64,000 nt of DNA from an uncultured Gammaproteobacteria bacterium (GTDB lineage Bacteria; Patescibacteriota; Patescibacteriia; UBA2591; UBA6264). Shown piece by piece: positions 4,008 through 59,086 of this stretch. The notes beneath the pieces are model-generated. The model saw only the letters and a program-made list of their open reading frames with translations, did no database searches and had not been told where the DNA came from. The stretch is from positions 9,924 through 73,923 of the forward strand of contig CAZQVF010000001.1 of assembly GCA_964596735.1 (NCBI GenBank). The letters are read 5' to 3'. Both the position numbers and the translations under genes were made by a program. Every line of letters starts with the position of its first letter. Position 1 is the stretch's first letter.

Positions 4008-4307
4008 ATGATTAGCAAAAACCAAGTTAAACATATTGCTAAGCTAACTCGCTTAAAATTAAGCGAAGAAGAAGTAAGTAAATACCAAAAAGAATTGGCC
4101 AAGATTTTGGATTACGTTGGTCAATTACAAGAAATAGATACAAAAGATATTCCCCCATGTTCAGGGGGAACAGATTTAAAAAATGTTTTTCGTAAAGATG
4201 AATCAGAAATAAAAGTTAAGGAAAAGAGCCAAAAATTGGTAGACCAAGCCCCATCAAAGCAAAAAGATTTAATTAAAACCAAGGGAGTTTTTTATGAAAC
4301 TAAATAA
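4008..4307 (+). CDS. gatC: Asp/Glu-tRNA amidotransferase subunit C
   Basis: A 99-aa protein beginning MISKNQVKHIAKLTRLKLSEEEVSKYQKELAKILDYVGQLQEIDT, the typical GatC N-terminus. It lies immediately upstream of gatA and overlaps it by 14 nt. Confidence 0.85.
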   Translation: MISKNQVKHIAKLTRLKLSEEEVSKYQKELAKILDYVGQLQEIDTKDIPPCSGGTDLKNVFRKDESEIKVKEKSQKLVDQAPSKQKDLIKTKGVFYETK

Positions 4308-5735: not shown

Positions 5736-5763
5736 TTGACAAAAAAAATAAAAGAATTATAAT
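5736..5763 (+). promoter_or_regulatory. Near-consensus sigma70-type promoter (TTGACA - 16 nt - TATAAT)
   Basis: TTGACA lies at 5736-5741 and TATAAT at 5758-5763 with a 16-nt A-rich spacer. A stable hairpin follows at 5765-5812. Confidence 0.45.
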
Positions 5764-5764
5764 A

Positions 5765-5812
5765 AAAAGCGGTTTTTGTCGGCCTAACTAAGAATGGCTA
5801 AAAACCGCTTAA
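5765..5812. other. Long-loop hairpin (AAAAGCGGTTTTT / AAAAACCGCTT stem), possible bidirectional terminator or ncRNA 5' stem-loop
   Basis: The 11-13-bp stem flanks a 22-nt loop, gtcggcctaactaagaatggct. A T-run follows on the minus strand (TTTTTATTAT). The loop contains the motif TTTGTCGGCCTAAC, which recurs at 5874-5888. Confidence 0.45.
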
Positions 5813-5927
5813 ATTATACAAAAAAAGATAACATTAGATTGCTTAGTGGTTATAAAAGACAGAAATGTTGAATTTTGTCGGCCTAACGCTTTTATAATTA
5901 AATTACTTTATTATTTATATGATGAAA

Positions 5928-5961
5928 TTTAATTTCAAGGTTCTGCGAAGCAGGTTCTTAT
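5928..5961 (-). repeat. 34-bp intergenic element ATAAGAACCTGCTTYGCAGAACCTTGAAATTAAA, copy 1 (reverse orientation, 33/34 identical to the others)
   Basis: The reverse complement of 5928-5961 matches 11598-11631 and 59002-59035 except for a single T/C change. The element contains the mini-hairpin CTGC-TTY-GCAG, a direct GAACC duplication and a TTGAAA (-35-like) hexamer. Confidence 0.75.
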
Positions 5962-5992: not shown

Positions 5993-7021
5993 ATGAAATA
6001 CATTAAAGAAAAAATAATTAAAAATAAAAAATATTATTATTTTAATTACACCCTTTCTCAGGTTTCAAACAAAAAAAAGATTTATTTGTCTAAATATATT
6101 GGTACGGAAATTCCCAACAATATTAAGGAGTTAATGTTAGGTTTTTTTCAAGAGAATGTTGCCCAAGTTTCATTAGAACGAATTAGTCGGTTAATTAGAA
6201 ATTATTTTCCTCAAAACACCATTGCGTATATTGAAAGAAATCGTTTTTGGTATACGTGTTTATTTCATAAATTTTTTAATAAAGATTTTAAATTATTTAG
6301 AACCCTATTTTATATATTGTTTGTTTTAAATTCTAATCGGGCTGAAGGTTCAAGGGTTGTCAGGCCCGATATAGAAAAGATTTTGGAAAAGAGAAGGGTT
6401 AAACCAAAGACTAATATAGACAAAGAAATTATTAATTCTGTTGAAGCTATAAATTTTGCTTTTTCAAAAAAAATGCAATGGAATATCAAGTCAGTTAAAA
6501 CAATTCATTATAAACTTTTTTATAACATAGCTCCAAATGCTGCGGGGCAATATAAAAAAGAACCAAATATTGCAGGGGACAATATTAGGGGGGAACTTGT
6601 TTCAACAACATTCCCTGAAGATGTCTCTAAAGAAATGAGAAATTTAATAAACTGGCTTAATCAAGAAAGAAGAAAGAAAACATACCCTCCTATTTTAGCC
6701 CTGGAATTTCACTGGCGTTTTGAAGCAATTCATCCTTTTCAGGACGGGAATGGAAGGGTGGGTAGAATTTTACTAAACGCTTTACTGGTAGAAAATAATT
6801 TTATGCCAGTAATATTTTTTAGCAAAAATCATCAATCTTATTGTTCAGCAATTTCTAAAGCTCGAACTGGTTACAGTAAAAAATTAGCTCAGCATTTTGT
6901 TGAACATTTAAAAAAGACAAAGATAAATATAGAAAAATACAGAAAGGAAAAGGTAATTAAAATAGCATCTCCTCAGACTGAAAAATGGGAAAAGGCCAGA
7001 GTAAATATAAAATTATATTAG
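5993..7021 (+). CDS. fic: Fic-family protein (AMPylase / adenylyltransferase), class II with an intrinsic inhibitory helix
   Basis: The Fic motif HPFQDGNGRVGR (HxFx[DE]GNGRxxR) is at about residue 237. An upstream inhibitory motif S-N-R-A-E-G ([ST]xxxE[GN]) is in LNSNRAEGSRV. Confidence 0.85.
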   Translation: MKYIKEKIIKNKKYYYFNYTLSQVSNKKKIYLSKYIGTEIPNNIKELMLGFFQENVAQVSLERISRLIRNYFPQNTIAYIERNRFWYTCLFHKFFNKDFKLFRTLFYILFVLNSNRAEGSRVVRPDIEKILEKRRVKPKTNIDKEIINSVEAINFAFSKKMQWNIKSVKTIHYKLFYNIAPNAAGQYKKEPNIAGDNIRGELVSTTFPEDVSKEMRNLINWLNQERRKKTYPPILALEFHWRFEAIHPFQDGNGRVGRILLNALLVENNFMPVIFFSKNHQSYCSAISKARTGYSKKLAQHFVEHLKKTKINIEKYRKEKVIKIASPQTEKWEKARVNIKLY

Positions 7022-7084
7022 GACTTGACCAAAATTAAAAACAATGTTAACTTAAATTAACTTTAATCAATTAATTTATTTTTT

Positions 7085-8092
7085 ATGGAAAAAACAGGTT
7101 TAACTCTTTGGAAAGCAATTGCTGGCATTCTACTGGTTATTTTAATTGCTTCGGTTTTGACCAATGGATTTGGCTTAAAACAAGTTTTAGTCAAAGTTCC
7201 TTCAGAGGAATTAGGTAATAAAACAATAGATTTTATTAATGAAAGCCTTCTTCAGCCAGGCACAACCGCCTCTTTGGCTAAGGCCGATTGTGAAGAAAGG
7301 CCAGGCCTTTGCAAATTAACAGTGAATATTGGTGATAATAGTTTTGATTCTTATATTTCAACAGATGGACAGCTTTTATTTCCAGAAGCAATTGAAATGG
7401 AAAAAGCAGAAGAATCAAACAATCAGGCGGCAACGGATCAACAAGTAGGTCAGTCAGCCTCTTTGGAAAATCTTCCCAAACAAGAGAAAGCAGACGTGAA
7501 GCTATTTATCATGTCTTATTGTCCATATGGTTTGCAAGCTCAAAAAGCCTTATTGCCCGCCTTTGATCTGTTAAAGGACCAAGCAGATATAAAAGTTCAC
7601 TTTGTTAATTATATTATGCATGACAAACAAGAAATTGATGAAAACTTAAGACAATATTGTATTCAAGAACAAGAACCAGAAAAGTTTATACCATATCTTG
7701 GTTGTTTTGTTGAAGCAGGGGATTTTGAAAAATGTTTAAGTCAGGTCAATATTAATAAATCAAACTTAAACACTTGTCTAGCTCAAACAGATGAAGAATA
7801 TGGACTTTATGCCGCCTACGAAGACAAAGAATCTTGGCTTAGCGGATTATATCCAGTCTTTAAGATTGATGATGAACTTAACAAACAATATGGTGTTCAA
7901 GGATCTCCGACCCTGGTTATTAATGACCAGGTGGTTCAACCAAATAGATCCCCAGAAGCTTATAAACAAGCGATTTGCCTGGGCTTTGAAACAATGCCTG
8001 ATCAATGCGCTCAAACATTGTCTAGTAAATCTCCCACACCAGGGCTTGGACTTGGAGAAACAGACTCTACGAGTGATGCCCAGTGTGAATAA
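7085..8092 (+). CDS. Membrane-anchored DsbA/thioredoxin-fold protein with a monothiol CPYG active-site variant
   Basis: An N-terminal TM segment (LLVILIASVLTNGF) is followed by a thioredoxin-like core, FIMSYCPYGLQAQK ... YGVQGSPTLVINDQ. This DsbA-like cis-Pro loop has CxxG in place of the canonical CxxC. Confidence 0.6.
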   Translation: MEKTGLTLWKAIAGILLVILIASVLTNGFGLKQVLVKVPSEELGNKTIDFINESLLQPGTTASLAKADCEERPGLCKLTVNIGDNSFDSYISTDGQLLFPEAIEMEKAEESNNQAATDQQVGQSASLENLPKQEKADVKLFIMSYCPYGLQAQKALLPAFDLLKDQADIKVHFVNYIMHDKQEIDENLRQYCIQEQEPEKFIPYLGCFVEAGDFEKCLSQVNINKSNLNTCLAQTDEEYGLYAAYEDKESWLSGLYPVFKIDDELNKQYGVQGSPTLVINDQVVQPNRSPEAYKQAICLGFETMPDQCAQTLSSKSPTPGLGLGETDSTSDAQCE

Positions 8093-8118: not shown

Positions 8119-8946
8119 ATGTTTAATCTATTTTTTGATTTTTTACATAATTTTGAGCCCCAACCAATTATTTTACGGTTGGGGTTTTTAAATATTTATT
8201 GGTACAGTTGTCTAATTGTTATTGCTCTTTTATTGGGTTTAATTCTTGTTTTTAAATTAAGTTCAAGATTTAAAATTGAAAAACAATTATTAGAAAACTT
8301 GTTTTTTTATTTAATTATTAGTGGTTTTTTAGGCGCTCGTCTTTACCATGTTTTAAGTGAATTTCCCTATTATCTAAGGCATCCTTGGCAGGTATTTGCG
8401 GTCTGGCAAGGGGGGCTGGGTATTTACGGAGCAGTTGTTGTTGGCAGCCTGGTTTTGCTTTGGTTTTGTAGAAAATACAAATTAAATTTTTTATCTTTAG
8501 CTGACTTATTAGCCCCTAGCTTAATATTGGGACAAGCCATTGGCCGTTGGGGAAATTATTTTAATCAAGAAGTCTTTGGAAAGCCAACCAGTCTGCCCTG
8601 GGGGATTCCTATTGAAACAATGGCCAGGCCTTTAGAATTTTTATCAAGTCAATATTTTCACCCTACTTTTTTATACGAATCAATTTGGAATTTTTTAGTA
8701 TTTTTAATTCTAATTTTTGTTTTAATAAAGATTTTTCCTAAGCCAGGCCGAATTTTTTCTCTTTATTTAATTCTTTATTCTTTTGGCAGGTTCTTTTTAG
8801 AGTTTTTAAGAATTGATTCTCAGCCAGTTTTATTTGATTTGCGTTTAGCTCAGATTATTTCTTTGTTGGTTTTTATTTTTGGTTTTTATTTATTAATAAA
8901 AAAGAGCCCCTGGAAAGACTCATCCGAATCTGAAAAAGATATTTAA
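8119..8946 (+). CDS. lgt: Prolipoprotein diacylglyceryl transferase
   Basis: A polytopic 275-aa protein with Lgt signatures (GARLYHVL, WQGGLGIYGAVVG, GRWGNYFNQE). Confidence 0.88.
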   Translation: MFNLFFDFLHNFEPQPIILRLGFLNIYWYSCLIVIALLLGLILVFKLSSRFKIEKQLLENLFFYLIISGFLGARLYHVLSEFPYYLRHPWQVFAVWQGGLGIYGAVVVGSLVLLWFCRKYKLNFLSLADLLAPSLILGQAIGRWGNYFNQEVFGKPTSLPWGIPIETMARPLEFLSSQYFHPTFLYESIWNFLVFLILIFVLIKIFPKPGRIFSLYLILYSFGRFFLEFLRIDSQPVLFDLRLAQIISLLVFIFGFYLLIKKSPWKDSSESEKDI

Positions 8947-9596
8947 CCCTGGGCCAAAACAATGGCCCAGATTTTTTTTGCCCCGGCTTGATACAGGGCT
9001 TTAGCGGCTTGTTCTAATGTGGCCCCAGTAGTTAAAATATCATCAATTAAAATAATATTTGGGACAATTTTTCCCTGAACCTTAAAAACGTTTTGCACAT
9101 TTAATTTTCTTTGTTCTCGACTAAGATTAGTTTGAGAAGGAGTATCCTTTACTTTTTTCAAGGATTTTTTTAAAGGCCAATTAAAAACAGTGGCTAATTC
9201 CTGAGCAATTAGATCGGCTTGATTAAAGCCTCGTTTGGCCAGTTTCTGCCTAAACAGAGGAATGGGAACTAAAATAAACCTGTTTTTAGATAAATAATTT
9301 AAAGCCAAAGGAGATTGTTTTAAGCATTTTATAAAAAGAGGGGAAAGGCTTTTTAAAACATTGAGATTATAAGGAGAATATTTAAAAGATTTGATGGCTT
9401 TCTTTAATAAAGGTTGTTGATAGTCAAAAATAGTAACAATCCTTTCAAGAGAATAAAGATTAGCCTCCCATTTGTTTAAGATAATAACTTTATCTAAACA
9501 TTTTTGGCAAACAATCTCGCCAATCTGACGGCAGCCAAGACATTCAATCGGAAACAGGGTGTTTAAAATTAAGTTCTTTAATTTATTTATCCACAT
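8943..9596 (-). CDS. comF: ComF-family competence protein (phosphoribosyltransferase domain)
   Basis: An N-terminal Zn-finger (CLGCRQ...CQKCLDK) and a C-terminal PRTase PRPP-binding loop (ILIDDILTTGATL). It is divergent from the pil operon. Confidence 0.75.
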   Translation of the reverse strand: MWINKLKNLILNTLFPIECLGCRQIGEIVCQKCLDKVIILNKWEANLYSLERIVTIFDYQQPLLKKAIKSFKYSPYNLNVLKSLSPLFIKCLKQSPLALNYLSKNRFILVPIPLFRQKLAKRGFNQADLIAQELATVFNWPLKKSLKKVKDTPSQTNLSREQRKLNVQNVFKVQGKIVPNIILIDDILTTGATLEQAAKALYQAGAKKIWAIVLAQG

Positions 9597-9601
9597 ACTT
9601 G

Positions 9602-9643
9602 TTGAAAATAGTATTATATTGTATAATATTATTGTATAATATT
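9602..9643 (+). promoter_or_regulatory. comF/pilM divergent promoter region with a perfect 13-bp tandem duplication carrying two TATAAT boxes
   Basis: TTGAAA lies at 9602-9607. ATTGTATAATATT is repeated exactly in tandem at 9618-9630 and 9631-9643, each copy containing TGTATAAT. Confidence 0.4.
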
Positions 9644-9677
9644 GGTATTAATAAAACAAATTAAGTATCAACTTAAT

Positions 9678-10727
9678 ATGGGTTTTTTTGGTTTTAAACA
9701 AAAAAAAAGTTTTCTAGGCATTGATATTGGGTCAACTAGTATTAAGTTAGTTGAGCTTAGTAAAGAAAAAGGAACTCCCACTTTAGTTACTTATGGTTAT
9801 GCAGAAAGGGCGATTAGTGATATTGTTAAGGGTGATGCTCAGAAAATTTTAAATAAAGTTGCTGCTTTATTAAAAAGGCTATATACAGATGCAGGAATTA
9901 CTAGTTTTCAGGCAGTAACAGCGTTGCCAAATTACTCTGTTTTTAATTCAGTGATTACCCTTCCAATGATGAATAAAAAAGAACTGGATTCCGCTGTTCG
10001 TTGGGAAGCTAAAAAGTTTGTTCCCATGCCCATTAATGACGTGGTCTTGGATTGGCGCATTATTGATACCATTGAAGTTGATAAAAGAAGAAAAAACTAT
10101 CGTATTCTTTTAACTGCAGCGGCCAAGAATTTGGTCAGAAGATATGTTGAAATTTTCAAAAAAGCTGATCTACAGCTCTTATCTTTAGAAACTGAATCAT
10201 TTGCTTTGTCGAGGGCCTTAATTGGCAAAAGTCAGGCAACGACTATGATTATTGATACTAGCGCCGTAACCACTGACATTCTTATTATTGAAAAAGGCGT
10301 GCCCGCTCTTAATCGTAGTATTGATGTTGGGGGGATTACTATTTCTCGGGCTATTGCTAATAGTTTAAATATTGATTTTAAAAGAGCAGAACAGTTTAAA
10401 AGAGATATTGGCATGGGTGGTTCTTCTAAAATTCCCAAGGTGATCGAGGGGATTCTTAAACCAGTAATTGATGAAATGCGTTATTCATTAAAACTTTATC
10501 AAGATCAGTCAGGCAAGGTAGTAGAACAGGTAATTTTTTCTGGCGGATCTGCTTATTTGCCTAATCTGGTTGAATATTTTTCTAAAATTTTAAATATACG
10601 TGTTATTATTGGCAATCCCTGGGCCAGAATTGCTTATCCAGAAGAATTAAAGCCGGCTTTGGAAGAGGTTGCTCCTCGTTTTGCTGTGGCCGTTGGATTA
10701 GCCTTAAGGGAAATTATAAGAACCTGA
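9678..10727 (+). CDS. pilM: Type IV pilus assembly protein PilM (actin-like ATPase fold)
   Basis: The ATG at 9678 gives MGFFGFKQKKSFLGIDIGSTSIKLVEL, the canonical PilM N-terminus. The ORF-track start at 9642 is a TTG. An FtsA/actin-like fold runs throughout. Confidence 0.85.
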   Translation: MGFFGFKQKKSFLGIDIGSTSIKLVELSKEKGTPTLVTYGYAERAISDIVKGDAQKILNKVAALLKRLYTDAGITSFQAVTALPNYSVFNSVITLPMMNKKELDSAVRWEAKKFVPMPINDVVLDWRIIDTIEVDKRRKNYRILLTAAAKNLVRRYVEIFKKADLQLLSLETESFALSRALIGKSQATTMIIDTSAVTTDILIIEKGVPALNRSIDVGGITISRAIANSLNIDFKRAEQFKRDIGMGGSSKIPKVIEGILKPVIDEMRYSLKLYQDQSGKVVEQVIFSGGSAYLPNLVEYFSKILNIRVIIGNPWARIAYPEELKPALEEVAPRFAVAVGLALREIIRT

Positions 10728-10797
10728 TTTTATCAGAATCTTGATTTTCAATTAAGTAAAACTTGAAATTAAAATCTTTAAATTTTTAAATAAATAT

Positions 10798-11601
10798 ATG
10801 GCCATTGTTCCCAATGTTTCTAGACAACCGGGGGATAGAAATGTCAATTCTCTTGCCCCTGAAAACAAGCCGTTAAAAAAGAGCTGGCTAGGTTCGATTT
10901 TTAAAAAAGAAAAAAAATCTTTGGCAGAGCCAAAAGAGCAAGCACCCTTGAGTGAAGAAGAGATTAGAAAACTGTCAGAGAAGAATTTAGAAAAAAAAGA
11001 AAAAAAAGGGTCTGTTGAAAAGTCGTTATTAAGCGACGAAGCTCAGACAGGCTCTTTAGATATTAGTTTAATGCCGGAAAAGGCAGTGATTATCCCCCGT
11101 ATTATTCGTTCCCGGTTATTAATTCTTATTGCCGCTTTAGCCGTTATTGTGCCCGCCTTTGTTTTAGTTTGGCTATACACTGATTATCATTTTGAAAAAA
11201 TGAGAAACGAGGTGATAGCGATGGAAAGAGAAATGCAGTTTTTAAAAGCGCAAAGCGGGTCACTTTTAAAGGTAAGAGATGAGATAATGAATCTGGAGAC
11301 TCAGGCAGCCCGGGCAGAGGAAATTTTAAATGATCATATTTATTGGACTAAATTTTTTAGTTTATTAGAGGCTTATACAATTCCAAATCTTTATTTTAGT
11401 GATTTCACAGCTGATACTAGTGGAATTATTCGACTAGATGCAATGGGTCGAGATTTAATTGATATTGCTCAGCAGATCATTGTCTTTACTCAAGCAGAAG
11501 ATTTTGCCAAAGAGGTAACCGCCTCTAATATTGCTCTGACCCCGGAAGGGATAAGGGCTTCTTTTAGTTTGCTTTTAAATGATAATGTTTTTAAAAAATA
11601 A
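10798..11601 (+). CDS. pilN: PilN-like bitopic pilus assembly protein
   Basis: A charged N-terminal region, a single TM (LLILIAALAVIVPAFVLVWLY), then coiled-coil. It sits between pilM and the pilO-like gene. The assignment rests on architecture and position only. Confidence 0.5.
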   Translation: MAIVPNVSRQPGDRNVNSLAPENKPLKKSWLGSIFKKEKKSLAEPKEQAPLSEEEIRKLSEKNLEKKEKKGSVEKSLLSDEAQTGSLDISLMPEKAVIIPRIIRSRLLILIAALAVIVPAFVLVWLYTDYHFEKMRNEVIAMEREMQFLKAQSGSLLKVRDEIMNLETQAARAEEILNDHIYWTKFFSLLEAYTIPNLYFSDFTADTSGIIRLDAMGRDLIDIAQQIIVFTQAEDFAKEVTASNIALTPEGIRASFSLLLNDNVFKK

Positions 11602-11631
11602 GAACCTGCTTTGCAGAACCTTGAAATTAAA
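11598..11631 (+). repeat. 34-bp intergenic element ATAAGAACCTGCTTTGCAGAACCTTGAAATTAAA, copy 2
   Basis: Identical to 59002-59035. It begins within the stop codon of the upstream gene and lies 20 nt upstream of the pilO-like start. TTGAAA plus a 17-nt spacer plus TATAGC gives a promoter-like arrangement. Confidence 0.75.
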
Positions 11632-11651
11632 AAACATTTTAATTATAGCAT

Positions 11652-12541: not shown

Positions 12542-14290
12542 ATGATACAGTCTGAGAATAAAATTACCCGTTTTTTAGTTGAACACGGCAAGATTTCTCG
12601 AGCACAATATAAGGAATTGTTAGCCGAAGCTAGAGAAGTCCGCTTGCCTGCGGATAAACTTTTAGAGACAAAGAAAATTTTACCCGAAGAAGACATTGCT
12701 TGGGCTAAAGGCCAATTATATACAGTGCCAGTAATTGACTTATATGGTTTAATTGTTGACCGCAAGGTTCTTAGCTTAGTGCCTAAGGATGTGGCTGAGA
12801 ATTATCAAGTGGCCGCCTTTGCCAAAGAAGGAAATATTTTAAAAGTGGCCATGCTTAATCCAGGTGATTTTAAGGGAAGAGAGGCAATAGATTTTCTTGC
12901 CCGACGAAAAAAACTCAAGCCAGAATTTTATACAACCGCTAGTTCTGCTCTAAAAAATATTTTAGCTCAATATGGGGGCTTATCAGTAGAAGTTAGTGAA
13001 GCAGTTGGTGCAGAAGAATCCCGGTTTGCCCCCATCACCCCAGAGAAAAAATTAACAATCGGAGAAATGGATTTGGAAAAAATGGGTCAGGCAGCTCCAA
13101 TTTCTAAATTAGTCGGCTCTATCTTAAAATATGCGGTTGATAACAATGCTTCTGATGTTCATATTGAGCCCTATACAGACAAAACAAGGGTGCGTTATCG
13201 GGTAGATGGTATTTTAAGAGAAACAGCAATGTTGCCGGGACATCTTCATCCAGCCATTGTTTCTCGAGTTAAAGTGATGGCCAATCTTAAGCTTGACGAG
13301 ACTCGGGTTCCACAGGATGGGCGTATCAGAGTGATTGCCGCCAAAAGAAAGATAGATTTACGTGTTTCTGTATTTCCTTTATTTGACAAAGAAAAAGTAG
13401 TAATGAGGGTTCTTGACCCAGCTCGTCGCGTCTTTGATTTAAAGGATTTAGGTTTTTGGGGAAAAGGTTTGGAGATAATCAAAAAGAATTTAGCTCGAGC
13501 TCATGGTTTGGTTCTAATTACCGGGCCAACTGGTTGTGGTAAAACAACTACTATTTTCGCCTCTTTAAAAATACTTAATCAAGTGAGTGTTAATGTGGTT
13601 ACTTTAGAAGACCCTATTGAATATTTTTTAGCCGGGACTAATCAATCTCAGGTGCGCCCTAAAATTGGTTATTCTTTTGCTTCTGGCTTGCGTTCAGTTG
13701 TTCGTCAAGACCCAGACATTATCATGGTTGGTGAGATTCGTGATAATGAGACAGCCGAATTAGCCACTCACGCTGCCTTAACTGGACACGTTGTTCTTTC
13801 TACTCTTCATACTAATGATGCCTTTGGAGCAGTGCCTCGTTTAATTGATATGGACATAGAACCATTTTTAATTGCCTCTTCATTAAATTTAGTTGTTGCC
13901 CAAAGACTAGTCCGAAAGCTTTGTCCTCATTGTGCCGAACAAGCCGAGTTTTCTCCAGCAGTGGAAAAAACAATAGAACAGGCATTAAAAGACATCAGAG
14001 ATCTTGATTTAGATAAATATCGAGATAAAAAAACAAATCATTTAAAGTTTTATAGAGGCAAGGGCTGTCCTCGATGTAATAATGAAGGTTATCAAGGACG
14101 AGTAGCTATTTCAGAGGCACTAGAGATTACTGAACAAATGAAGGAAATTATTACTAGTGGCTGTAAAATTGATGAGGTTAGGAGGGAGTTTGCTAGACAA
14201 GGGATGTTAGAAATAATCAAAGATGGATACCTTAAGGTTTTACGAGGCGAAACAACAATTGAAGAGGTTTTAAGAGCGGCCAGTGAATAA
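12542..14290 (+). CDS. pilB: Type IV pilus extension ATPase PilB (GspE family)
   Basis: It has Walker A GPTGCGKTTT, Asp box LEDPIEY, Walker B DPDIIMVGEIRD, His box LTGHVVLSTLHTND and the tetracysteine Zn site CPHC...CPRC. An N-terminal GSPII_E_N-like domain is present. All catalytic motifs are intact. Confidence 0.92.
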   Translation: MIQSENKITRFLVEHGKISRAQYKELLAEAREVRLPADKLLETKKILPEEDIAWAKGQLYTVPVIDLYGLIVDRKVLSLVPKDVAENYQVAAFAKEGNILKVAMLNPGDFKGREAIDFLARRKKLKPEFYTTASSALKNILAQYGGLSVEVSEAVGAEESRFAPITPEKKLTIGEMDLEKMGQAAPISKLVGSILKYAVDNNASDVHIEPYTDKTRVRYRVDGILRETAMLPGHLHPAIVSRVKVMANLKLDETRVPQDGRIRVIAAKRKIDLRVSVFPLFDKEKVVMRVLDPARRVFDLKDLGFWGKGLEIIKKNLARAHGLVLITGPTGCGKTTTIFASLKILNQVSVNVVTLEDPIEYFLAGTNQSQVRPKIGYSFASGLRSVVRQDPDIIMVGEIRDNETAELATHAALTGHVVLSTLHTNDAFGAVPRLIDMDIEPFLIASSLNLVVAQRLVRKLCPHCAEQAEFSPAVEKTIEQALKDIRDLDLDKYRDKKTNHLKFYRGKGCPRCNNEGYQGRVAISEALEITEQMKEIITSGCKIDEVRREFARQGMLEIIKDGYLKVLRGETTIEEVLRAASE

Positions 14291-17577: not shown

Positions 17578-18427
17578 TTACTGATTACTTATTTTGCTGG
17601 TTAAGGTGTAAGGAAGAACCGACTGACTGATTAAGACATAGGCATAAACAGTGGTTTTTACTTCTTTAATGCCAATGAAGGGGATGGGTAAAGGGACAAT
17701 GGCATCAACTTGTGCCATTAAAGGAAAGTGATATTGATCGTCACTTATCCAAACCTTAATATGATTTTCTTCACGGAAATAGTGTATTTTTTCCATAAGA
17801 GAGATGTCACACTTAAGGGCTTGGTATGCTTCATTTTCAATGTTGACGATTTCTTTTTGTTTAATAATCAGGGGCATTATTTTAGGAATGACCTGATTAT
17901 TATTCTTTCCTAAAATAGACAAATAATGAACATCATTAACCAATCCCTCCCTTGTTCTTAATTGCATGCCCAAGGTTATCACCTCTTGCAGATCTGTTGG
18001 AGAAAAGCTGGAATCAACAACCACTTTTTCAAAAAAAGGTGATTGCCCTGTCTGCAAGTACTTGTAGGTCATTTCCCGGCCGTTTTTAGTCAGATAAGTC
18101 CAACTAGTATCTGGTGAAGTAAGTAGATCGTCTGAAGCAGCAAAGCGATAGGTTTTTTTAAACTGACCAGTATAACGATTAAACTCAGTATAAATAGTAT
18201 CAACCGTAGCCACCAGCCCTCGGGCTAAACCTATTGTCTGTGAAGTCAGATAAACTGTCATTAAAGAGTCATTTTCTAGTGAAAGACCAATCTCAATATC
18301 AATGACCGCCACTTTTAGTGTTAGCCAGCGAACCTCGGCTGATATTTTTTCTCCAATGAATTTGTCAAATGATGTTTGTCCCCAAACTATTTTAACCAAC
18401 AAAAAAAGAACGATTATTTTTTTCAAG
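17578..18427 (-). CDS. Secreted hypothetical protein (signal peptide)
   Basis: The likely start is a TTG at 18427 preceded by GGAGG (aaaaaaGGAGGattgtaccTTG), giving LKKIIVLFLLVKIVWGQ, a signal peptide. The ORF-track Met at 18498 would add 24 non-signal residues. Confidence 0.5.
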
Positions 18428-30444: not shown

Positions 30445-30621
30445 AGTTTTCCACAGATTAAAAATCGAAAAAGTGCTATAATATCATCATAATTAAGCTT
30501 TTGTTTGTAATGTGCCATCAGCCACAAAAAACCAGTATTTATTTTGTTTTATATTAAGAACCTTTTGTAGAGGTTTTTATTTTTAATTAATAATAAAAAA
30601 TTAACATTTAATTTAAAAACT

Positions 30622-37560: not shown

Positions 37561-37594
37561 ATTTATTCCCTTTAAGGGAAGGGATAAGATATAG

Positions 37595-37626
37595 AAAAGG
37601 GGCTATAAAAAGCCCCTTTTCTTTTT
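37595..37626 (+). terminator. Rho-independent terminator of the giant gene
   Basis: AAAAGGGGCT-ATAAAA-AGCCCCTTTTCTTTTT. Confidence 0.7.
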
Positions 37627-37688
37627 AAATAATTATGCTAGAATTGAGGTTCATACCTCAAAGAGGTTGAACCTCTTAGGAAATAAAG

Positions 37689-38225: not shown

Positions 38226-38249
38226 TTTATTTTTTTATCGTCTTAATTA

Positions 38250-45133: not shown

Positions 45134-46300
45134 TTATACCTTAGCTAATTTTTTCAATGCGGCAACTTTATTTAACTTTTCCCAAGGCAAGTCTAAATCA
45201 TTTCTACCAAAATGTCCATAAGCAGCTACTTGCCTATAAATCGGCCGGCGTAGCCTCAGGTTTTTAATTAACATGCCTGGGCGTAGGTCAAAAACCTTAT
45301 TAACAATCTTAGCAATTTTTTCATCTGGTATTTTACCAGTATTAAAGGTGTCAATATTAATTGATAAGGGCTTGGCCACACCAATAACATAGGCTAATTG
45401 CACTTCAACCTTGTCAGCTAATTTAGCGCCAACAATATTTTTAGCCACCCAGCGAGCTCCATAGCTGCCTGAGCGATCAACCTTGGTGGGATCTTTACTA
45501 GAAAAACAGCCGCCGCCATGACGACCAATTCCACCATAAGTATCAACAATAATTTTTCTTCCTGTTAAACCAGTATCAGCTGCTGGCCCGCCTAAGACAA
45601 AACGACCAGTAGCATTAATGAAATATTTAGTGTTTTTATCAATCAATCTTTTAGGAACAACTGGTAGAATAACCTTTTTAATTATATCTTTCCTGAGTTT
45701 TTCTAAAGAAATTTTAGGACTGTGCTGAGCAGCAATAACCACGTTTTCGATCCTTTTGGCCTTCCCATTTTCATATTCAATAGTAATTTGACTTTTGCCA
45801 TCTGGCTTAAGATAGGGGAGGATTTTTTGTTTTCTAACTTGAGCCAGCTTTTTAGATAATTTATGAGCTAAAACAATTGGTAAGGGCATAAATTCTTTTG
45901 TTTCATTGCTAGCATAACCGTACATTAAGCCTTGGTCACCAGCTCCCAAATTAGTTAGTTTTTCTTTTTTATTTCGAGAGATGCCCTGAGCAATGTCTGG
46001 TGATTGAGAGTGAATTAAGGTAATTATTCCGCAGGTATCAGCATCAAGTCCATCATCTGTATGAGTATAACCAATTTCACGGATAATTTTTCTCACAAGT
46101 CGCGGTATTTCTACATAACAATTTGTGGTAATTTCTCCAGAGATAATTACTAAGCCCTTGGTGGTTAAGGTTTCGCAGGCGATCCTTGAATAAGGATCTT
46201 TAGCCAACAAAGCGTCTACAATGCCGTCTGAAATCTGATCAGCCACTTTATCAGGATGGCCTTCGGTGACAGATTCAGAAGTTAAGAATTTTTTTGTCAT
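45134..46300 (-). CDS. metK: S-adenosylmethionine synthetase
   Basis: N-terminus [31 protein letters not shown], and the glycine-rich [16 protein letters not shown] loop. It is 388 aa. Confidence 0.93.
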
Positions 46301-46337: not shown

Positions 46338-46420
46338 TTGATAATTATAAGAACCTTTCGCTCCGCTCAAGAACCCCGCCAAAGTTTCTTCGAAATTTAG
46401 GCGGGAACCTTGAAATTAAA
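46338..46420 (+). repeat. Degenerate/expanded copy of the 34-bp element (AAGAACC ... GGGAACCTTGAAATTAAA) with a GC-rich hairpin inserted in place of the mini-hairpin
   Basis: The TAAGAACC head and GAACCTTGAAATTAAA tail are both conserved. The central CTGCTTTGCAG is replaced by CCCCGCC-aaagtttcttcgaaattta-GGCGGG. Confidence 0.4.
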
Positions 46421-46486
46421 TTATTATTGCATAAAAATTAATGTAATTTAATTATAACAGGAATCTAACAGAAATAAAGAGAGGTC

Positions 46487-46773: not shown

Positions 46774-46903
46774 GGTTTACCCCCTTTCTATGTTGTGTAT
46801 GTAAATATCAACTATTTATAGAATAACAAATATGAACATTTTGTCAATTATGAAAAAGAATACCCGCGAGGGTATTAAATTAATAGAAGTATTTAAAGAA
46901 AAA

Positions 46904-47170
46904 TTAAGAATATAAATTACTATGACTATCTACGACAACGAAAATACATTCTTCTTCACTAATAAATTTATAAATAGCCCTTAAATCTCCTGTTATGTTA
47001 ATACTCCGATAGTCAGTATATCTTCCTTTTAAGGAATGGTTATTAAGCTGAGCGTTAAACGGGTTTTTTAAAAATAATTCTAATCTTTCCCGCACTTTTT
47101 TTTGTTCTCTCTTTTTTAGTTTTTTATACTGTTTCTCAAAATTTTTGTGAAAACGAATATTCATAAGCAA
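46904..47170 (-). CDS. relE: Type II toxin, RelE/ParE (YoeB/Txe-like) family
   Basis: An 88-aa protein. YKKLKKREQKKVRERLELFLKNPF ... LKGRYTDYRSINITGDLRAIYKF ... VVVDSHSNLY matches the RelE-fold toxin pattern. Its start is a TTG at 47170 or an ATG at 47164, and the gene lies downstream of the antitoxin gene. Confidence 0.7.
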   Translation of the reverse strand: MLMNIRFHKNFEKQYKKLKKREQKKVRERLELFLKNPFNAQLNNHSLKGRYTDYRSINITGDLRAIYKFISEEECIFVVVDSHSNLYS

Positions 47171-53177: not shown

Positions 53178-53297
53178 ATTCTTATCTTATTCAACAGGCC
53201 TAAATTAGTCAATAATCTATTAAGAAATAAGTTGCTTTTTATTTGGTTTTATGTTAAAATATGACCTACTTAATATTGATGTATAAACTTTTAATTT

Positions 53298-53576
53298 ATG
53301 GCAAAAACAAAAAAATCCAAAAAACCAGTAAAGAAAAAGATAATAGAAGAGAATAAAAAGAGCGACCAAGATACTGGTTCAGCTCAAGTTCAAATCAGCT
53401 TATTAACCAAAGAAATCAATGATCTAAATGAACATTTAAAAACTCATATTCATGACTATTCTTCTCGTCGAGGCTTATTAAAAAAGGTTAGTCAGCGAAG
53501 AAAAAATTTAAAATATCTACAGGTTCATGACAGCAGGGCTTATGAAAGAATAATTAAAAAACTTAAAAAGAAATAA
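53298..53576 (+). CDS. rpsO: 30S ribosomal protein S15
   Basis: GSAQVQISLLTKEINDLNEHLKTHIHDYSSRRGLLKKVSQRRKNLKYL matches S15. It is upstream of pnp, as is typical. Confidence 0.9.
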   Translation: MAKTKKSKKPVKKKIIEENKKSDQDTGSAQVQISLLTKEINDLNEHLKTHIHDYSSRRGLLKKVSQRRKNLKYLQVHDSRAYERIIKKLKKK

Positions 53577-58061: not shown

Positions 58062-58388
58062 ATGTTTCAACAGATACTTGCTTTAGTTATTATTGCTTTT
58101 TTCTTAATACGGCTTTTTTGGCAAAAACGAAAGAAGCAAATTGGGGCTAATGAATTTATTTTTTGGCTGGTTTTTTGGTGTTTAGCAGCCATTTTAATTC
58201 TTTCTTTAAAGTGGATTGATAAATTGGTAGCCGATTTAGGCTTCTCAGGTATGGGAATAGAAGTCTTACTTTATTTAGGAATAGCCGTCCTATTTTATTT
58301 TATTTTTAGATTAAGATTAAAATTAGAAAAGATAGAAAAAAATATCACCAAGATAATTAGAGAAATGGCCATTAAAGATAAGGAATAA
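58062..58388 (+). CDS. DUF2304-like small membrane protein (GT2-associated)
   Basis: A 108-aa protein with three TM helices. Such proteins are commonly found next to GtrB-like GT2 genes. Confidence 0.45.
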   Translation: MFQQILALVIIAFFLIRLFWQKRKKQIGANEFIFWLVFWCLAAILILSLKWIDKLVADLGFSGMGIEVLLYLGIAVLFYFIFRLRLKLEKIEKNITKIIREMAIKDKE

Positions 58389-59002
58389 TGTCAGAAAATA
58401 TTCTACAGAATAAAGGAGAAAACAAGAAACGGTTTTTTAAAGAAATGTCACCCTTTTTATCTTTTGTTTTTGATGCAATTAAACTAGTTATCCTAGCCTT
58501 TATTATCGTCTGGCCTATTCATCGTTTTGTTTTTCAACCGTTTTATGTTGTCGGACCGTCAATGGAGCCAAGTTTTTATGATAATGAATATTTAATTATT
58601 GAAAAAATTACCTACCGTTTTCGTGAACCAAAGAGAGGAGAAGTAATTGTTTTTCAATCACCATCTAACCCCAAAGATTATTTAATTAAAAGAATTATTG
58701 GTCTGCCAAATGAAAAAATTTTAATTGAAAAAGGCGATGTTTTGATTGAAAATACTCAGTTTGTTCAGGGCCTAGAACTAAAAGAAGACACTTATCTAGC
58801 TTCTGGAACAACGACTCCTGGCCAAATTAATGTTGAATTACAAGATGGTCAATATTATGTTTTAGGTGATAATCGTAACATGAGTTTAGATTCACGGGTT
58901 TTTGGCCCAATAAGTAGGGAGAACATTAGTGGTCGGGCCTGGTTCAGAGGCTGGCCTTTTAAAGAAATTGGCTTAATTAAAATGCCTGTTTTTAGTTATT
59001 AA
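58388..59002 (+). CDS. lepB: Signal peptidase I (S26 family)
   Basis: A TM anchor and catalytic Ser in VVGPSMEPSF. The Lys box is LIKRIIGLPNE. GDNRNMSLDSRVFGPI is also present. Confidence 0.88.
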   Translation: MSENILQNKGENKKRFFKEMSPFLSFVFDAIKLVILAFIIVWPIHRFVFQPFYVVGPSMEPSFYDNEYLIIEKITYRFREPKRGEVIVFQSPSNPKDYLIKRIIGLPNEKILIEKGDVLIENTQFVQGLELKEDTYLASGTTTPGQINVELQDGQYYVLGDNRNMSLDSRVFGPISRENISGRAWFRGWPFKEIGLIKMPVFSY

Positions 59003-59035
59003 TAAGAACCTGCTTTGCAGAACCTTGAAATTAAA
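59002..59035 (+). repeat. 34-bp intergenic element ATAAGAACCTGCTTTGCAGAACCTTGAAATTAAA, copy 3
   Basis: Identical to 11598-11631. It starts inside the lepB stop codon and lies about 50 nt upstream of hisS. Confidence 0.75.
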
Positions 59036-59086
59036 TATTATTATATAAACAGTAAAGTAATTTAATTATAAATAATTAATTAAAAT

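What the first reader, a model, noticed from the sequence alone, without database searches (positions are those of the whole stretch)
5928..5961. Near-identical 34-bp element in three intergenic sites, abutting stop codons, with a fourth expanded copy
ATAAGAACCTGCTT[T/C]GCAGAACCTTGAAATTAAA occurs at 11598-11631 (+), 59002-59035 (+) and 5928-5961 (-). The three copies are 33/34 or 34/34 identical, far beyond chance in 64 kb of AT-rich DNA. Two copies begin inside the stop codon of the upstream gene and lie 20-50 nt upstream of the next start (the pilO-like gene and hisS). The element has a CTGC-TTY-GCAG mini-hairpin, a GAACC direct duplication and a TTGAAA hexamer about 17 nt before a TATA-like box. 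At 46338-46420 the head and tail are conserved but the mini-hairpin is replaced by a longer GC hairpin. A TAAGAACC head also occurs at 30556. Possible roles are a shared promoter or UP-element, a transcription-factor site, an RNA processing or attenuation signal, or a small REP-like mobile repeat.
Basis: seen in the sequence. Interest (0 to 1): 0.6.

Follow-up and report, generated by a model that had tools for sequence, protein, structure and literature searches.

The report
Small mobile hairpin repeat of CPR bacteria
The repeated 34-bp motif is the conserved core of a 45-105-bp hairpin-forming insertion element that has recently copied itself into at least four places between genes in this genome and occurs in dozens of other Patescibacteria (CPR) genomes; it is a new family of a familiar kind of selfish intergenic repeat, and evidence that it is a shared promoter is weak.

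Summary
The 34-mer occurs three times, with 0 matches in 100 shuffles, and a fourth expanded copy and a fifth degenerate copy exist. It is the core of a longer unit: AT | AAG-AAC-[C-hairpin1-G]-AAC-[CTTGAAATT...loop...AATT] | AT. Both hairpins covary.

The same architecture is present in at least 100 loci from about 40 assemblies, nearly all labelled Patescibacteria. It is often in head-to-tail tandem arrays.

Close relatives with the same gene order have clean empty sites for four of the five window copies. These relatives are 92-93% (GatA, HisS), 87% (HisS) or 76% (GatA) identical in the neighbouring protein. Four clean filled/empty pairs (two window copies, two relatives' copies) fit one rule: insertion with a 2-bp AT at both junctions, into TTATAA-like sequence. 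That sequence can be a -10 box, the surroundings of a stop codon, or the AT of an ATG.

Orientation is random with respect to genes (25 vs 29) and GC skew (42 vs 43). There are no terminal inverted repeats, no Rfam match, and almost no copies in viral contigs.

Best reading: a non-autonomous mobile element, like a MITE, REP or PATE, whose mobilising enzyme is unknown. Promoter activity is possible but not supported by consensus scans. I rate it a new variant of a known kind and moderately interesting.

The parts
5894..5961 (-). Copy c1, the finding's own coordinates. It has a 64-bp body (5959->5896 on the minus strand) flanked by AT (5961-5960 and 5895-5894). Layout: AAGAACC, hairpin1 TGCTTCGCA, GAACCTTGA, then hairpin2 AATTAAAT...ATTTAATT.
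   Evidence: 75 nt, 91% identical to c3. The site is empty in L131 (GatA 92% identical): gattttAT|AAATATATTTTTatg against window gcttttAT[AATTAAATTAC..GGTTCTT AT]AAATGAATTT.
11598..11646 (+). Copy c2, the short-loop variant. It has a 45-bp body (11600-11644) between AT 11598-11599 and AT 11645-11646. Hairpin2 is TTAAAA-AACA-TTTTAA. The TAA stop of the pilN-like gene lies at 11599-11601 inside ATAAG.
   Evidence: One search gives an MFE that forms both hairpins (z = -3.2). In L133 (GatA 76%) the pilN-pilO spacer is only 6 nt, against 50 nt here.
59002..59069 (+). Copy c3. It has a 64-bp body (59004-59067) between AT 59002-59003 and AT 59068-59069, and lies between lepB (Peptidase_S26) and hisS.
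   Evidence: The site is empty in L119/L120 (HisS 93%) and L121 (87%): ttattaAT|AAATAATTAATTAAAATatg, an 18-nt spacer against 84 nt here.
46347..46455 (+). Copy c4, expanded, with a 105-bp body. Layout: AAGAACC, hairpin TTTCGCTCCGCTCAA, GAACC, hairpin CCGCC...GGCGG, GAACCTTGA, then hairpin2 with a class-A loop. It lies antisense to, and 47 nt upstream of, metK (45134..46300, minus strand).
   Evidence: One search gives an MFE of -15.9 kcal/mol (z = -3.6). The copy is identical in contigs from three samples.
10716..10797 (+). Copy c5, a degenerate tandem copy: ATAAGAACC-TGATTTTATCA-GAATCTTGATTTTCAATTAAG-TAAAACTTGAAATTAAAATCTTTAAATTTTT. The pilM-like ORF now ends on a TGA inside hairpin1 (10725-10727).
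   Evidence: The pilM-pilN spacer is 7 nt in L133, about 20 nt in L054, and 70 nt here.
30555..30621 (+). Possible remnant: a TAAGAACC head followed by TTTTGTAGAGGTT and AT-rich sequence up to the ATG at 30622. Membership is uncertain.
   Evidence: There is no GAACCTTGA core.
53286..53300 (+). Unoccupied target site upstream of rpsO: cttttaattt|AT|GGCAAAA. The relative L096 carries an element inserted exactly here, at the AT of the start codon.
   Evidence: Flanks are 82-88% identical, and L122 is also empty.
46895..46912 (+). Unoccupied target site aattaagaat|AT|AAATTAC, next to the ParE/YafQ-like toxin gene end. The relative L027 carries an element here.

Best explanation
The 34-mer is the conserved core of a small non-autonomous mobile DNA element that resembles MITE, REP and PATE repeats. 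The element body is 45-105 bp in this window.

**Layout.** The unit reads AAG-AAC-[C-hairpin1-G]-AAC-[CTTGAAATT-xxx...loop...xxx'-AATT]. It is two structurally conserved hairpins joined by invariant AAC linkers. It has no terminal inverted repeats.

**Shown here.**
- The element is a discrete unit that is present or absent at orthologous sites in close relatives.
- Every clean junction carries AT on both sides. This fits either a 2-bp duplication or a blunt insertion into A|T.
- The target resembles the element's own joined ends, AATT-AT-AAG (a TTATAA core).
- It inserts in either orientation and forms head-to-tail arrays with a single AT between units.

**Inferred.**
- A trans-acting recombinase or transposase that has not been identified recognises the hairpins and AAC/GAACC boxes. 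It joins the ends at the AT core, possibly through a circular or tandem intermediate. The enzyme could be a 2-bp-core site-specific type or a single-strand HUH type.
- TTATAA-like targets are typical of -10 boxes, TAA stops and AT-rich start-codon surroundings. That would explain why the element ends up against stop codons and start codons.
- Each junction regenerates TTATAA, or the ATG itself, and the element does not look like an efficient terminator. Insertions inside operons would therefore be tolerated.
- Any promoter contribution is secondary and unproven.
For: **Real and non-random**
- Three exact copies, with 0 of 100 shuffles giving any match.
- 75 nt at 91% identity between c1 and c3, with unrelated flanks.

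**Family**
- One of these assemblies, JAHIMV01, contributed 20 loci.
- 154 units were found; with the stricter GAACCTTGAAA anchor, 133 units fall into 114 arrays, 18 of them array-internal, with periods of 65-107 nt.

**Structure**
- Hairpin1 outer pairs are paired in 0.81 and 0.64 of 98 distinct inserts, against 0.47 and 0.49 in partner shuffles (0 of 500 shuffles reach this).
- One hairpin2 pair reads AU 50, GC 8, UA 6, CG 2, with 0 unpaired in 66 distinct sequences.
- The covariation score is 0.145 against 0.076 for shuffles (0/500), and 0.02-0.07 for slid controls.

**Mobility**
- c3 is absent in L119/L120 (HisS 93%) and L121 (87%).
- c1 is absent in L131 (GatA 92%).
- c2 and c5 are absent in L133, where the spacers are 6 and 7 nt.
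- Conversely, L096 and L027 carry copies at sites that are empty in the window.
- L013/L086 and L082/L093 are further filled/empty pairs.
- L045 has 1 unit and L076 has 2 at one orthologous site.
- L047 and L051 differ by an 8-nt indel in hairpin1.

**Junctions and target**
- All four clean pairs fit an AT junction. A TA junction does not fit.
- The left-flank consensus of 119 solo copies is AATTAT, with A at -5 in 81%. This matches the element's own 3' end.

**Orientation**
- Co-oriented with flanking genes 25, anti-oriented 29, in divergent regions 18, in convergent regions 3.
- The forward strand is G-rich in 42 arrays and C-rich in 43.
Against: - No transposase or recombinase could be tied to the element.
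- None is encoded in the window apart from a conserved XerC/D-like gene.
- About 1 Mb of element-bearing loci contains a single Y1_Tnp gene, and it has its own unrelated flanking inverted repeats.
- No autonomous parent with the same ends was found.
- The invariant core is conserved across assemblies labelled as different CPR classes (Daviesbacteria, Parcubacteria, Falkowbacteria). That is stronger conservation than is usual for REP or MITE families, and it could mean a host function.
- The loop of hairpin2 is conserved in sequence (TTrTATAnAAATTAAnGTA; 51 of 66 have TAnnnT 9 nt before the element end). A purely structural recognition site does not require this.
- Copies are depleted in convergent intergenic regions (3 against 18 in divergent regions). 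For a neutral selfish element this needs a target-preference explanation that has not been proven.
Confidence: 0.72

Rival explanations
1. A portable or shared promoter module, possibly bidirectional. TTGAAA would act as the -35 box. The -10 would be either a box in the hairpin2 loop or the terminal TTATAA. On the other strand, GGTTCT-TATAAT would face outward. The module would feed leaderless or short-leader mRNAs, and the GAACC boxes would be an activator or UP-like site.
For: - This organism does use TTGACA-N17-TAnnnT-N6-ATG promoters, for example at genes 43334 and 53177.
- c2 reads TTGAAA-N17-TATAGC, and c1 reads TTGAAA-17-AATAAT (10/12).
- On the reverse strand the sequence TAnnnT-N6-ATG occurs in L013, L020, L025 and L026. 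On the forward strand TA(A/T)TTT-AATT(AT)-ATG occurs in L008, L051, L058, L079 and L096.
- Some divergent intergenic regions consist of little more than the element (L026, L020), so at least one promoter must overlap it.
- A conserved TAAnGT lies 9 nt before the 3' end.
- Only 3 of 75 arrays with both neighbours called lie in convergent regions.
Against: - The element is absent at orthologous sites of close relatives, whose spacers of 6-18 nt leave no room for a promoter. The downstream genes therefore did not need one.
- 29 of 75 arrays point away from the nearest gene start, toward the 3' end of a gene on the other strand.
- The TTGAAA-to-TATA spacing ranges from 13 to more than 60 nt, because the hairpin2 loop varies.
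- Consensus scans are not above shuffled controls: 2 against 1.0, 4 against 1.0 +/- 1.2, and 3 against 3.1.
- The ATG adjacency is explained by insertion into the AT of the start codon (L096, L082).
- Covarying hairpins are not a promoter property.
Confidence: 0.12
2. A structured RNA element acting in cis in read-through transcripts. It could serve as an intercistronic processing or stabilising site, a 5' leader, or a weak terminator or insulator. Alternatively it could be a small RNA gene family.
For: - Both hairpins covary.
- Hairpin1 loops are C(UUC)G or cUUCGg on one strand and cGAAg on the other.
- Many copies sit inside operons, abutting the upstream stop codon (-2 to +6 nt in 11 of 25), so they must be transcribed.
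- On the antisense strand, hairpin1 plus TTCTTAT is flagged as terminator-like in c1, c2 and c3.
Against: - Orientation relative to the flanking genes is random (25 against 29), so the transcribed strand differs from copy to copy.
- No Rfam family matches at gathering or E-value thresholds.
- The unit has no consistent promoter and terminator of its own.
- Wobble-pair asymmetry is contradictory. There are 27 A.C-type against 9 G.T-type departures on the forward strand in the variable pairs, but an invariant G.T at the base of hairpin2 on the same strand.
- The hairpins are thermodynamically weak (z = -0.5 to -1.7 for c1 and c3).
Confidence: 0.1
3. A guide-RNA or defence-type array, either a TIGR-Tas tigRNA array or something CRISPR-like, given the tandem units of 65-107 nt in CPR genomes.
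For: - Tandem interspaced units occur in Patescibacteria.
- TIGR stem-loop arrays are reported in CPR and are processed at a CUU at the base of the stem (bioRxiv 10.64898/2026.09.09.750476).
- The core of this element contains CCUUGA.
Against: - Units within an array are near-identical and have no variable spacers (L091, L089, L079).
- There are no box C/D motifs.
- Most copies are solitary and dispersed between housekeeping genes.
- No tas or cas gene is present in the window.
Confidence: 0.02

Closest known systems
Correia repeat-enclosed elements (CREE/NEMIS) of Neisseria. This comparison rests on my own knowledge of the literature and was not tested here.
   Same: - Both are about 100-bp non-coding elements present in many copies per genome, in intergenic regions right next to genes.
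- Both show presence/absence polymorphism between relatives.
- Both insert at an A/T dinucleotide with a 2-bp duplication.
- In both, the junctions create TATA(A/T)-type -10-like boxes facing outward.
- Both are co-transcribed with neighbouring genes and can fold into a hairpin.
   Different: - Correia elements have 26-bp terminal inverted repeats and a TA duplication. This element has no terminal inverted repeats, and only AT fits the junctions.
- This element has two internal, covarying hairpins separated by AAC linkers.
- It forms head-to-tail tandem arrays.
- Its host range is CPR-wide and not limited to one genus.
REP/REPIN sequences mobilised by RAYT (Y1 HUH) transposases, and IS200/IS605-derived PATEs
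   Same: - Both are short extragenic palindromes in which the structure is conserved more than the sequence.
- In both, a conserved short motif adjoins the foot of the hairpin (GTAG in REPs, GAAC(C) here).
- Neither has terminal inverted repeats or an obvious target duplication.
- The left flank has a preferred sequence ((A)ATTAT), as with insertion 3' of a fixed tetra- or pentanucleotide.
- The hairpin loop cGAAg is the very stable DNA mini-hairpin motif.
   Different: - REPs lie mostly downstream of genes and occur as inverted pairs. These elements avoid convergent regions (3 of 75) and repeat in direct orientation.
- The two hairpins are unlike each other, whereas IS200/IS605 ends have similar hairpins.
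- There is no strand bias relative to GC skew (42 against 43).
- No cognate Y1 gene was found. The only Y1_Tnp gene seen has unrelated flanking repeats.
Elements that integrate through a 2-bp crossover core (the IS607 serine-recombinase family and IS110/IS1111). This is a working analogy only and rests on my own knowledge.
   Same: - Neither has terminal inverted repeats.
- The apparent 2-bp 'duplication' equals the crossover dinucleotide.
- The target resembles the joined ends of a circular form.
- The tandem junction AATT-AT-AAGAACC looks like a circle junction.
- A palindromic core (AT) would allow both orientations.
   Different: - Those are autonomous elements of 1-2.5 kb that carry their own recombinase.
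- No such gene was linked to this element.
- No circular form was observed.
- Their mechanisms do not explain hairpin covariation.

Membership tests
MITE of the DDE cut-and-paste type (e.g. Correia, RUP) | Terminal inverted repeats | tested here: not met
   The ends are AAGAACCTGC... and ...GTAATTTAATT. The only symmetry is the palindromic TTATAA formed with the flanks.
MITE of the DDE cut-and-paste type (e.g. Correia, RUP) | Fixed-length target-site duplication | tested here: inconclusive
   All four clean filled/empty pairs fit a 2-bp AT at both junctions, and TA does not fit. Blunt insertion into A|T is an equivalent description.
MITE of the DDE cut-and-paste type (e.g. Correia, RUP) | Many dispersed copies with presence/absence polymorphism between relatives | tested here: met
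MITE of the DDE cut-and-paste type (e.g. Correia, RUP) | An autonomous IS with the same ends in the same genomes | not testable with these tools
   Only about 1 Mb of element-flanking sequence was held, and whole genomes could not be scanned again. None was seen.
REP/REPIN-RAYT | An imperfect palindrome of 20-40 nt with a conserved tetranucleotide at its foot | tested here: inconclusive
   The hairpins are flanked by an invariant (A)GAAC(C), but the unit is composite, with two different hairpins.
REP/REPIN-RAYT | Inverted doublets, with location mainly at gene 3' ends and in convergent regions | tested here: not met
   Repeats are in direct tandem. Only 3 of 75 arrays lie in convergent regions.
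REP/REPIN-RAYT | A single-copy RAYT gene flanked by the same REPs | tested here: not met
   The one Y1_Tnp gene found (L100 1755-2460; Pfam PF01797, E = 2.8e-17) is flanked by GGGGTCAACTC/GAGCTGACCCC and not by this element. A genome-wide test was not possible.
IS200/IS605-derived PATE | Similar subterminal hairpins at both ends, and insertion 3' of a fixed short target | tested here: inconclusive
   The left flank has the consensus AATTAT, which fits. Hairpin1 (GC-rich, short) and hairpin2 (AT-rich, long) are dissimilar.
IS200/IS605-derived PATE | Orientation bias with respect to the replication strand | tested here: not met
   The forward strand is G-rich in 42 arrays and C-rich in 43 (p = 1.0).
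Sigma-70-type promoter | -35 and -10 hexamers 16-18 nt apart | tested here: inconclusive
   c1 scores 10/12 and c4 scores 9/12. c2 lacks the T at position 6. c3 has no TTGAAA-based match. Counts are not above shuffled controls.
Sigma-70-type promoter | Points toward a gene or RNA, and is conserved at orthologous positions | tested here: not met
   29 of 75 arrays are anti-oriented between co-directional genes. The element is absent from orthologous sites of close relatives.
Structured RNA family (Rfam) | A match to a curated covariance model | tested here: not met
   Only tRNAs were found in the window and in 17 array-bearing loci. The E-value searches returned noise only.
Structured RNA family (Rfam) | Covariation together with a constant transcribed strand | tested here: inconclusive
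   Covariation is clear, but orientation relative to genes is random.
TIGR-Tas array | Box C/D motifs, variable spacer pairs and an adjacent tas gene | tested here: not met
   Units within an array are identical, there is no box C/D, and there is no Nop-domain gene in the window.

The most novel reading that the evidence does not exclude
This is a CPR-wide family of 'stealth' mobile cassettes moved by a recombination system that has not been described. A hairpin-structured element of about 64 bp would integrate through a palindromic 2-bp AT core into TTATAA-like sequence, including the -10 hexamer of leaderless genes and the AT of start codons. It would rebuild a -10-like box or the ATG at both junctions. 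An internal TAAnGT box 9 nt from its end would re-create a near-leaderless transcript for the gene it lands in front of. The element would then be both a new transposition chemistry or substrate and a generator of promoters in streamlined genomes.
Probability: 0.2. Interest if true: 0.8.

Novelty: new variant of a known kind. Interest (0 to 1): 0.55.

Why it matters
- **Genome plasticity.** Patescibacteria have tiny, tightly packed genomes and are usually described as poor in mobile DNA. This family has copies between pilM, pilN and pilO, between lepB and hisS, between rpsB and tsf, and in front of rpsO. Relatives have spacers of only 6-18 nt at the lepB-hisS, pilM-pilN and pilN-pilO sites compared. 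Intergenic space in these genomes is therefore being remodelled actively and recently.
- **Strain marker.** The element is a ready marker for strain-level and species-level divergence.
- **Possible source of regulatory change.** Insertions could create new promoters or leaders.
- **Entry point to an unknown enzyme.** The element gives a defined substrate (two hairpins, AAC linkers, AT core) with which to search for the enzyme that moves it.
- **Annotation.** Gene callers will mis-set stop and start codons where the element overlaps them. For example, the pilM-like ORF here ends inside the element.

Tried and rejected
- **Rfam.** I ran gathering-threshold scans on the window and on 17 array-bearing loci, and E-value scans on c1 and on the L091 array. 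They returned only tRNAs and noise. The C/D snoRNA-like hits come from an ATGATGA that occurs by chance in the c1 loop.
- **TIGR-Tas arrays.** I read the paper. I rejected this because there is no spacer variation and no box C/D.
- **Literature.** Searches for the core sequence, CPR promoters, leaderless genes, and MITEs or repeats in CPR found nothing describing this element.
- **Phage origin.** There is 1 hit in 2.9 million viral contigs.
- **Small RNA driven by c1 or c4.** Terminator-bearing stretches do follow both copies. However, L131 has the same 5736-5890 region without c1, and the terminator after c4 belongs to the convergent ORF.
- **Folded-strand choice from wobble pairs.** The result is contradictory.
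- **Thermodynamic support.** It is weak for the AT-rich copies. Covariation is the real evidence for structure.
- **Replication-strand bias.** None was found.
- **Transposase hunt.** I used regular-expression searches over 2019 ORFs in about 1 Mb. They found one unrelated Y1_Tnp gene and no serine-recombinase motif.
- **LexA (GAAC direct repeats), ECF/sigma-32-like -35 boxes, boxA/nut, IS91 GAAC/CAAG targets, and 16S helix 45 similarity.** I considered these from memory. I dropped them because the spacing between GAACC boxes varies from 8 to 60 nt and nothing testable supported them.
- **TA duplication (IS630/Correia type).** It is incompatible with the c3 and L096 junctions taken together.
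Full report
**1.

The 34-mer ATAAGAACCTGCTTYGCAGAACCTTGAAATTAAA is present at 5928-5961(-), 11598-11631(+) and 59002-59035(+) with no mismatch. No match occurred in 100 dinucleotide-preserving shuffles. The copy at 11598 contains the TAA stop of ORF 10798..11601. The copy at 59002 starts on the last base of the stop of ORF 58388..59002.

The expanded copy at 46338-46420 and the TAAGAACC head at 30555 exist.
- Copies 1 and 3 are 91% identical over 75 nt (I1).
- A tail GTAATTTAATTATAA follows in copies 1, 3 and 4.
- A fifth, degenerate tandem copy lies at 10716-10797.

Contigs assembled independently from several samples are 99.97-100% identical to the window and carry the same copies. Assembly duplication is therefore excluded.

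**2. Anatomy of the family**

These come from about 40 assemblies, nearly all labelled Patescibacteria:
- Labels include Daviesbacteria, Parcubacteria, Falkowbacteria and Minisyncoccales.
- Several automatically labelled 'Saccharibacteria' or 'Gammaproteobacteria' MAGs are included. One of them, CAZDOL01, is syntenic with this window.
- One assembly, JAHIMV01, contributed 20 loci.
- One or two hits look like chance matches (L081 and L071, inside ORFs).

Reading 154 units gives this layout:

[AT] AAG-AAC-[C - hairpin1 - G]-AAC-[CTTGAAATT xxx ... loop ... xxx' AATT] [AT]

- **Hairpin1** is 8-60 nt. Short forms are xGC-TTC-GCx or C(TTCG)G. Long forms are a-TC-GC-TTC-GC-TC-a'. On the other strand these read cGAAg with tandem GA.
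- **Hairpin2** has a 4-60 nt loop. Class A has a roughly 22-nt conserved loop, TTrTATAnAAATTAAnGTA. Class B/C, which includes the copy at 11598, has a 4-5-nt loop.
- **Iteration.** The 'GAACC-hairpin' module can repeat within one element (the window copy at 46347, also L016, L054, L099). Whole units occur head-to-tail with periods of 65-107 nt.

**3. The hairpins are selected**

- **Hairpin1.** Boundaries were fixed by the invariant flanks. The second and third outer positions pair in 81% and 64% of 98 distinct inserts. With partners shuffled the values are 47% and 49%, and no shuffle of 500 reached the observed values.
- **Hairpin2.** The 3' strand was located by the invariant AATTAT, not by complementarity. 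One pair reads AU 50, GC 8, UA 6, CG 2, with no unpaired case in 66 distinct sequences. The covariation score is 0.145 against 0.076 for shuffles (0/500) and 0.02-0.07 when the partner is slid by 1-3 columns.
- **Thermodynamics.** Folding energies are unremarkable for the AT-rich copies (z = -0.5 to -1.7). They are better for the copies at 11598 and 46347 (z about -3 to -3.6).
- **Databases.** No Rfam family matches.

**4. It is an insertion**

Four of the five window copies have empty orthologous sites in close relatives.

| Site | Relative (identity of neighbouring protein) | Relative's state | Window |
|---|---|---|---|
| lepB-hisS (c3) | L119/L120 (HisS 93%), L121 (87%) | 18-nt spacer, ...ttattaAT\|AAATAATTAATTAAAATatg | 84 nt; differs by exactly the element plus AT |
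| lepB-hisS (c3) | L123, L124 (HisS 76%, 74%) and relatives at about 60% | element also absent | as above |
| gatA-fic (c1, the finding's coordinates) | L131 (GatA 92%) | gattttAT\|AAATATATTTTTatg | gcttttAT[AATTAAATTAC...GGTTCTT AT]AAATGAATTT... |
| pilM-pilN (c5) | L133 (GatA 76%) | 7-nt spacer | 70 nt |
| pilN-pilO (c2) | L133 (GatA 76%) | 6-nt spacer | 50 nt |

No close relative was obtained for the copy at 46347.

The reverse also occurs, with relatives filled where the window is empty:
- L096 (flanks 82-88% identical) has an element inserted exactly at the AT of the rpsO start codon. The window (53299) and L122 are empty there.
- L027 has one at a site that is empty in the window, near 46900.

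Other comparisons:
- L013/L086 and L082/L093 are filled/empty pairs.
- L045 has one unit and L076 has two at one orthologous site.
- L047 and L051 differ by an 8-nt indel in hairpin1.
- L054 carries a tandem array in the opposite orientation downstream of gatA.

Several lineages, including outgroups, are empty at these sites. Insertion is therefore more parsimonious than repeated precise deletion.

**5. Junction rule and target**

All four clean pairs fit AT on both sides of a body AAGAACC...AATT. In element orientation the targets are:
- TCATTT-AT-AAAAGC
- TTATTA-AT-AAATAA
- TAATTT-AT-GGCAAA
- AAGAAT-AT-AAATTA

A TA duplication cannot fit the c3 and L096 junctions together. A blunt insertion into A|T is an equivalent description.

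The left flank of 119 solo copies has the consensus AATTAT (A at -5 in 81%). The two bases after the right-hand AT are A in 73% and 65%. The target therefore mimics the element's own joined ends, AATT-AT-AAG, which contains the palindromic TTATAA. There are no terminal inverted repeats.

- **Stop-codon contact.** The TAA lies within or next to TTATAA-like sequence.
- **Closeness to start codons.** The AT of the ATG, or a -10 box 6 nt upstream of a leaderless ATG, is a target. Examples are L013, L025, L096 and L082.
- **The TATA-like box.** It is the junction itself.

**6. Orientation and context**

Of the 75 arrays with both neighbours called (of 114):

| Context | Arrays |
|---|---|
| Between co-directional genes, same orientation as the genes | 25 |
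| Between co-directional genes, opposite orientation | 29 |
| Divergent regions | 18 |
| Convergent regions | 3 |

Orientation is also random relative to local GC skew, 42 against 43.

Neighbouring genes are ordinary housekeeping genes: dnaK, tsf, rplK, rpsO, rpsF, rpsA, metG, truB, miaA, recR and pilins. The element is almost absent from viral contigs, with 1 hit.

**7. What it does**

Shown: it is a discrete, multicopy, recently and repeatedly inserted unit with structure-constrained hairpins.

Inferred: it is mobilised in trans by an enzyme that reads the hairpins and AAC/GAACC boxes and joins the ends at AT.

I could not identify that enzyme:
- The window encodes no transposase. It has only a conserved XerC/D-like recombinase and an ECF sigma factor.
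- In about 1 Mb of element-bearing loci, the only Y1 transposase has unrelated flanking repeats.

Evidence on the class of mechanism:
- A DDE cut-and-paste mechanism is unlikely, given the lack of terminal inverted repeats, the hairpins and the left-flank specificity.
- A single-strand HUH-type mechanism fits the hairpins and the cGAAg loops.
- A site-specific mechanism with a 2-bp core fits the palindromic AT core, the random orientation and the circle-like tandem junction.
- The lack of strand bias and the dissimilarity of the two hairpins speak against a classical IS200/IS605 relationship.

**8. Promoter question**

This organism does use TTGACA-N17-TAnnnT-N6-ATG promoters. Parts of the element look promoter-like: TTGAAA, a conserved TAAnGT 9 nt before the 3' end (51 of 66), and TTATAA at both junctions.

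The case against a promoter role is stronger:
- Consensus scans are not above shuffled controls.
- The TTGAAA-to-TATA distance is not constant.
- The element is inserted into operon junctions that have no promoter in relatives.
- Half of the copies point the wrong way.

On the strand opposite to the element, hairpin1 followed by TTCTTAT is repeatedly flagged as a weak terminator. Because insertions inside the pilMNO and lepB-hisS strings are tolerated, the element probably neither terminates nor is needed for transcription.

A promoter contribution remains possible in particular cases. In L096 it separates rpsO from its old -10 box. In L026 it fills a divergent region. I rate a primary promoter role at about 0.12.

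**9. Comparison with known systems, and novelty**

It works most like the Neisseria Correia elements: small size, 2-bp A/T junction, -10-like boxes at the ends, location next to genes, co-transcription. It also shares features with REP/PATE repeats (structure-conserved palindromes with a conserved foot motif). It fails defining features of each:
- No terminal inverted repeats.
- No inverted doublets.
- No replication-strand bias.
- No linked RAYT or TnpA gene.

Nothing describing it turned up in Rfam or in the paper library. That search is limited and does not prove absence from the literature.

I file it as a new variant of a known kind, namely small non-autonomous interspersed repeats. Three features are unusual: the two-hairpin/AAC-linker build, the AT core, and an invariant core shared across assemblies labelled as different CPR classes.

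Noticed in passing
L119 (JAHIMV010000060) 6848-7137, 8847-9035, 12840-13006, 17607-17791: A second, unrelated family of intergenic inserts of about 165-290 nt fills the space from the stop codon to the next ATG. It reads AGAGTTTTGTC...AAAACCTTTACCCTGTTAAATAATTTCGCTTTTAGCGAAATTGCCGCAGGGCGGCATTTAACAGGGTGCTCAAA...AACAAATTTGGC|ATG. The relative L121 has only 4-28 nt at the same places. CPR intergenic space seems to host several insertion families.
   Followed up: partly
L119 13839-13943 and 18210-18316; L123 11494-11588: A third kind of palindromic intergenic filler is built from CAACTAAACAA / TTGTTAAATTG repeats. It too is absent from L121.
   Followed up: no
window 5736-5890: A perfect TTGACA-16-TATAAT promoter (12/12) lies on the + strand just after gatA. 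It is followed by a 14-mer repeated exactly twice (TTTGTCGGCCTAAC at 5775 and 5874) and by a hairpin AAGCGGTTTTT...AAAAACCGCTT. The whole block is conserved in L131, which lacks the element. It may be a small RNA or a long fic leader.
   Followed up: partly
window 59087-59250 and relatives L106-L112, L119-L125: HisS carries a Lys-rich N-terminal extension of 50-90 residues (MPKKVKKPKKRVIKRAKPKK...) with internal 36-nt DNA repeats. The extension is conserved as a feature across relatives but varies in sequence.
   Followed up: no
window 9596-9642: A divergent intergenic region is made of tandem TATTATATTGTATAATATTATTGTATAATA. This gives repeated extended -10-like boxes facing both genes.
   Followed up: no
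window 10700-10727: The pilM-like ORF (9642..10727) reads into the degenerate element and stops on a TGA inside hairpin1. Its last residues therefore differ from those of L054 and L133. This is an example of the element rewriting a gene's 3' end.
   Followed up: yes
window 30622-43200: An ECF sigma factor (37689-38225) with a DUF5667 partner (38250-39191) lies between two giant ORFs of 2312 aa (30622-37560) and 1245 aa (39463-43200). The larger one has only faint Pfam hits to surface-repeat domains (SdrD_B, SpaA, CarboxypepD_reg); the other has none.
   Followed up: no
L020 (JAGMAD010000001), ORF downstream of the element: The downstream ORF looks like a TFIIB/TFB zinc-ribbon protein ([42 protein letters not shown]). 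That is unexpected in a MAG labelled Parcubacteria. It was judged by eye only.
   Followed up: no
L100 1755-2460: An IS200-like Y1 transposase (PF01797, E = 2.8e-17) is flanked by its own inverted repeats GGGGTCAACTC / GAGCTGACCCC. It lies 2 kb from an element array but is not bounded by it.
   Followed up: yes
L108 about 1480-1545 (upstream of hisS): In a relative that lacks the element, the lepB-hisS spacer contains three tandem AGAACATT repeats: tagacatAGAACattAGAACattAGAACataaatttaatatataatatATG. It may be a decayed relic or an unrelated GAAC motif.
   Followed up: no
L079 about 4085-4162 and L008 up to about 5341: Runs of N (database masking) fall inside or next to tandem arrays of the element. 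Array lengths there are therefore lower bounds.
   Followed up: no
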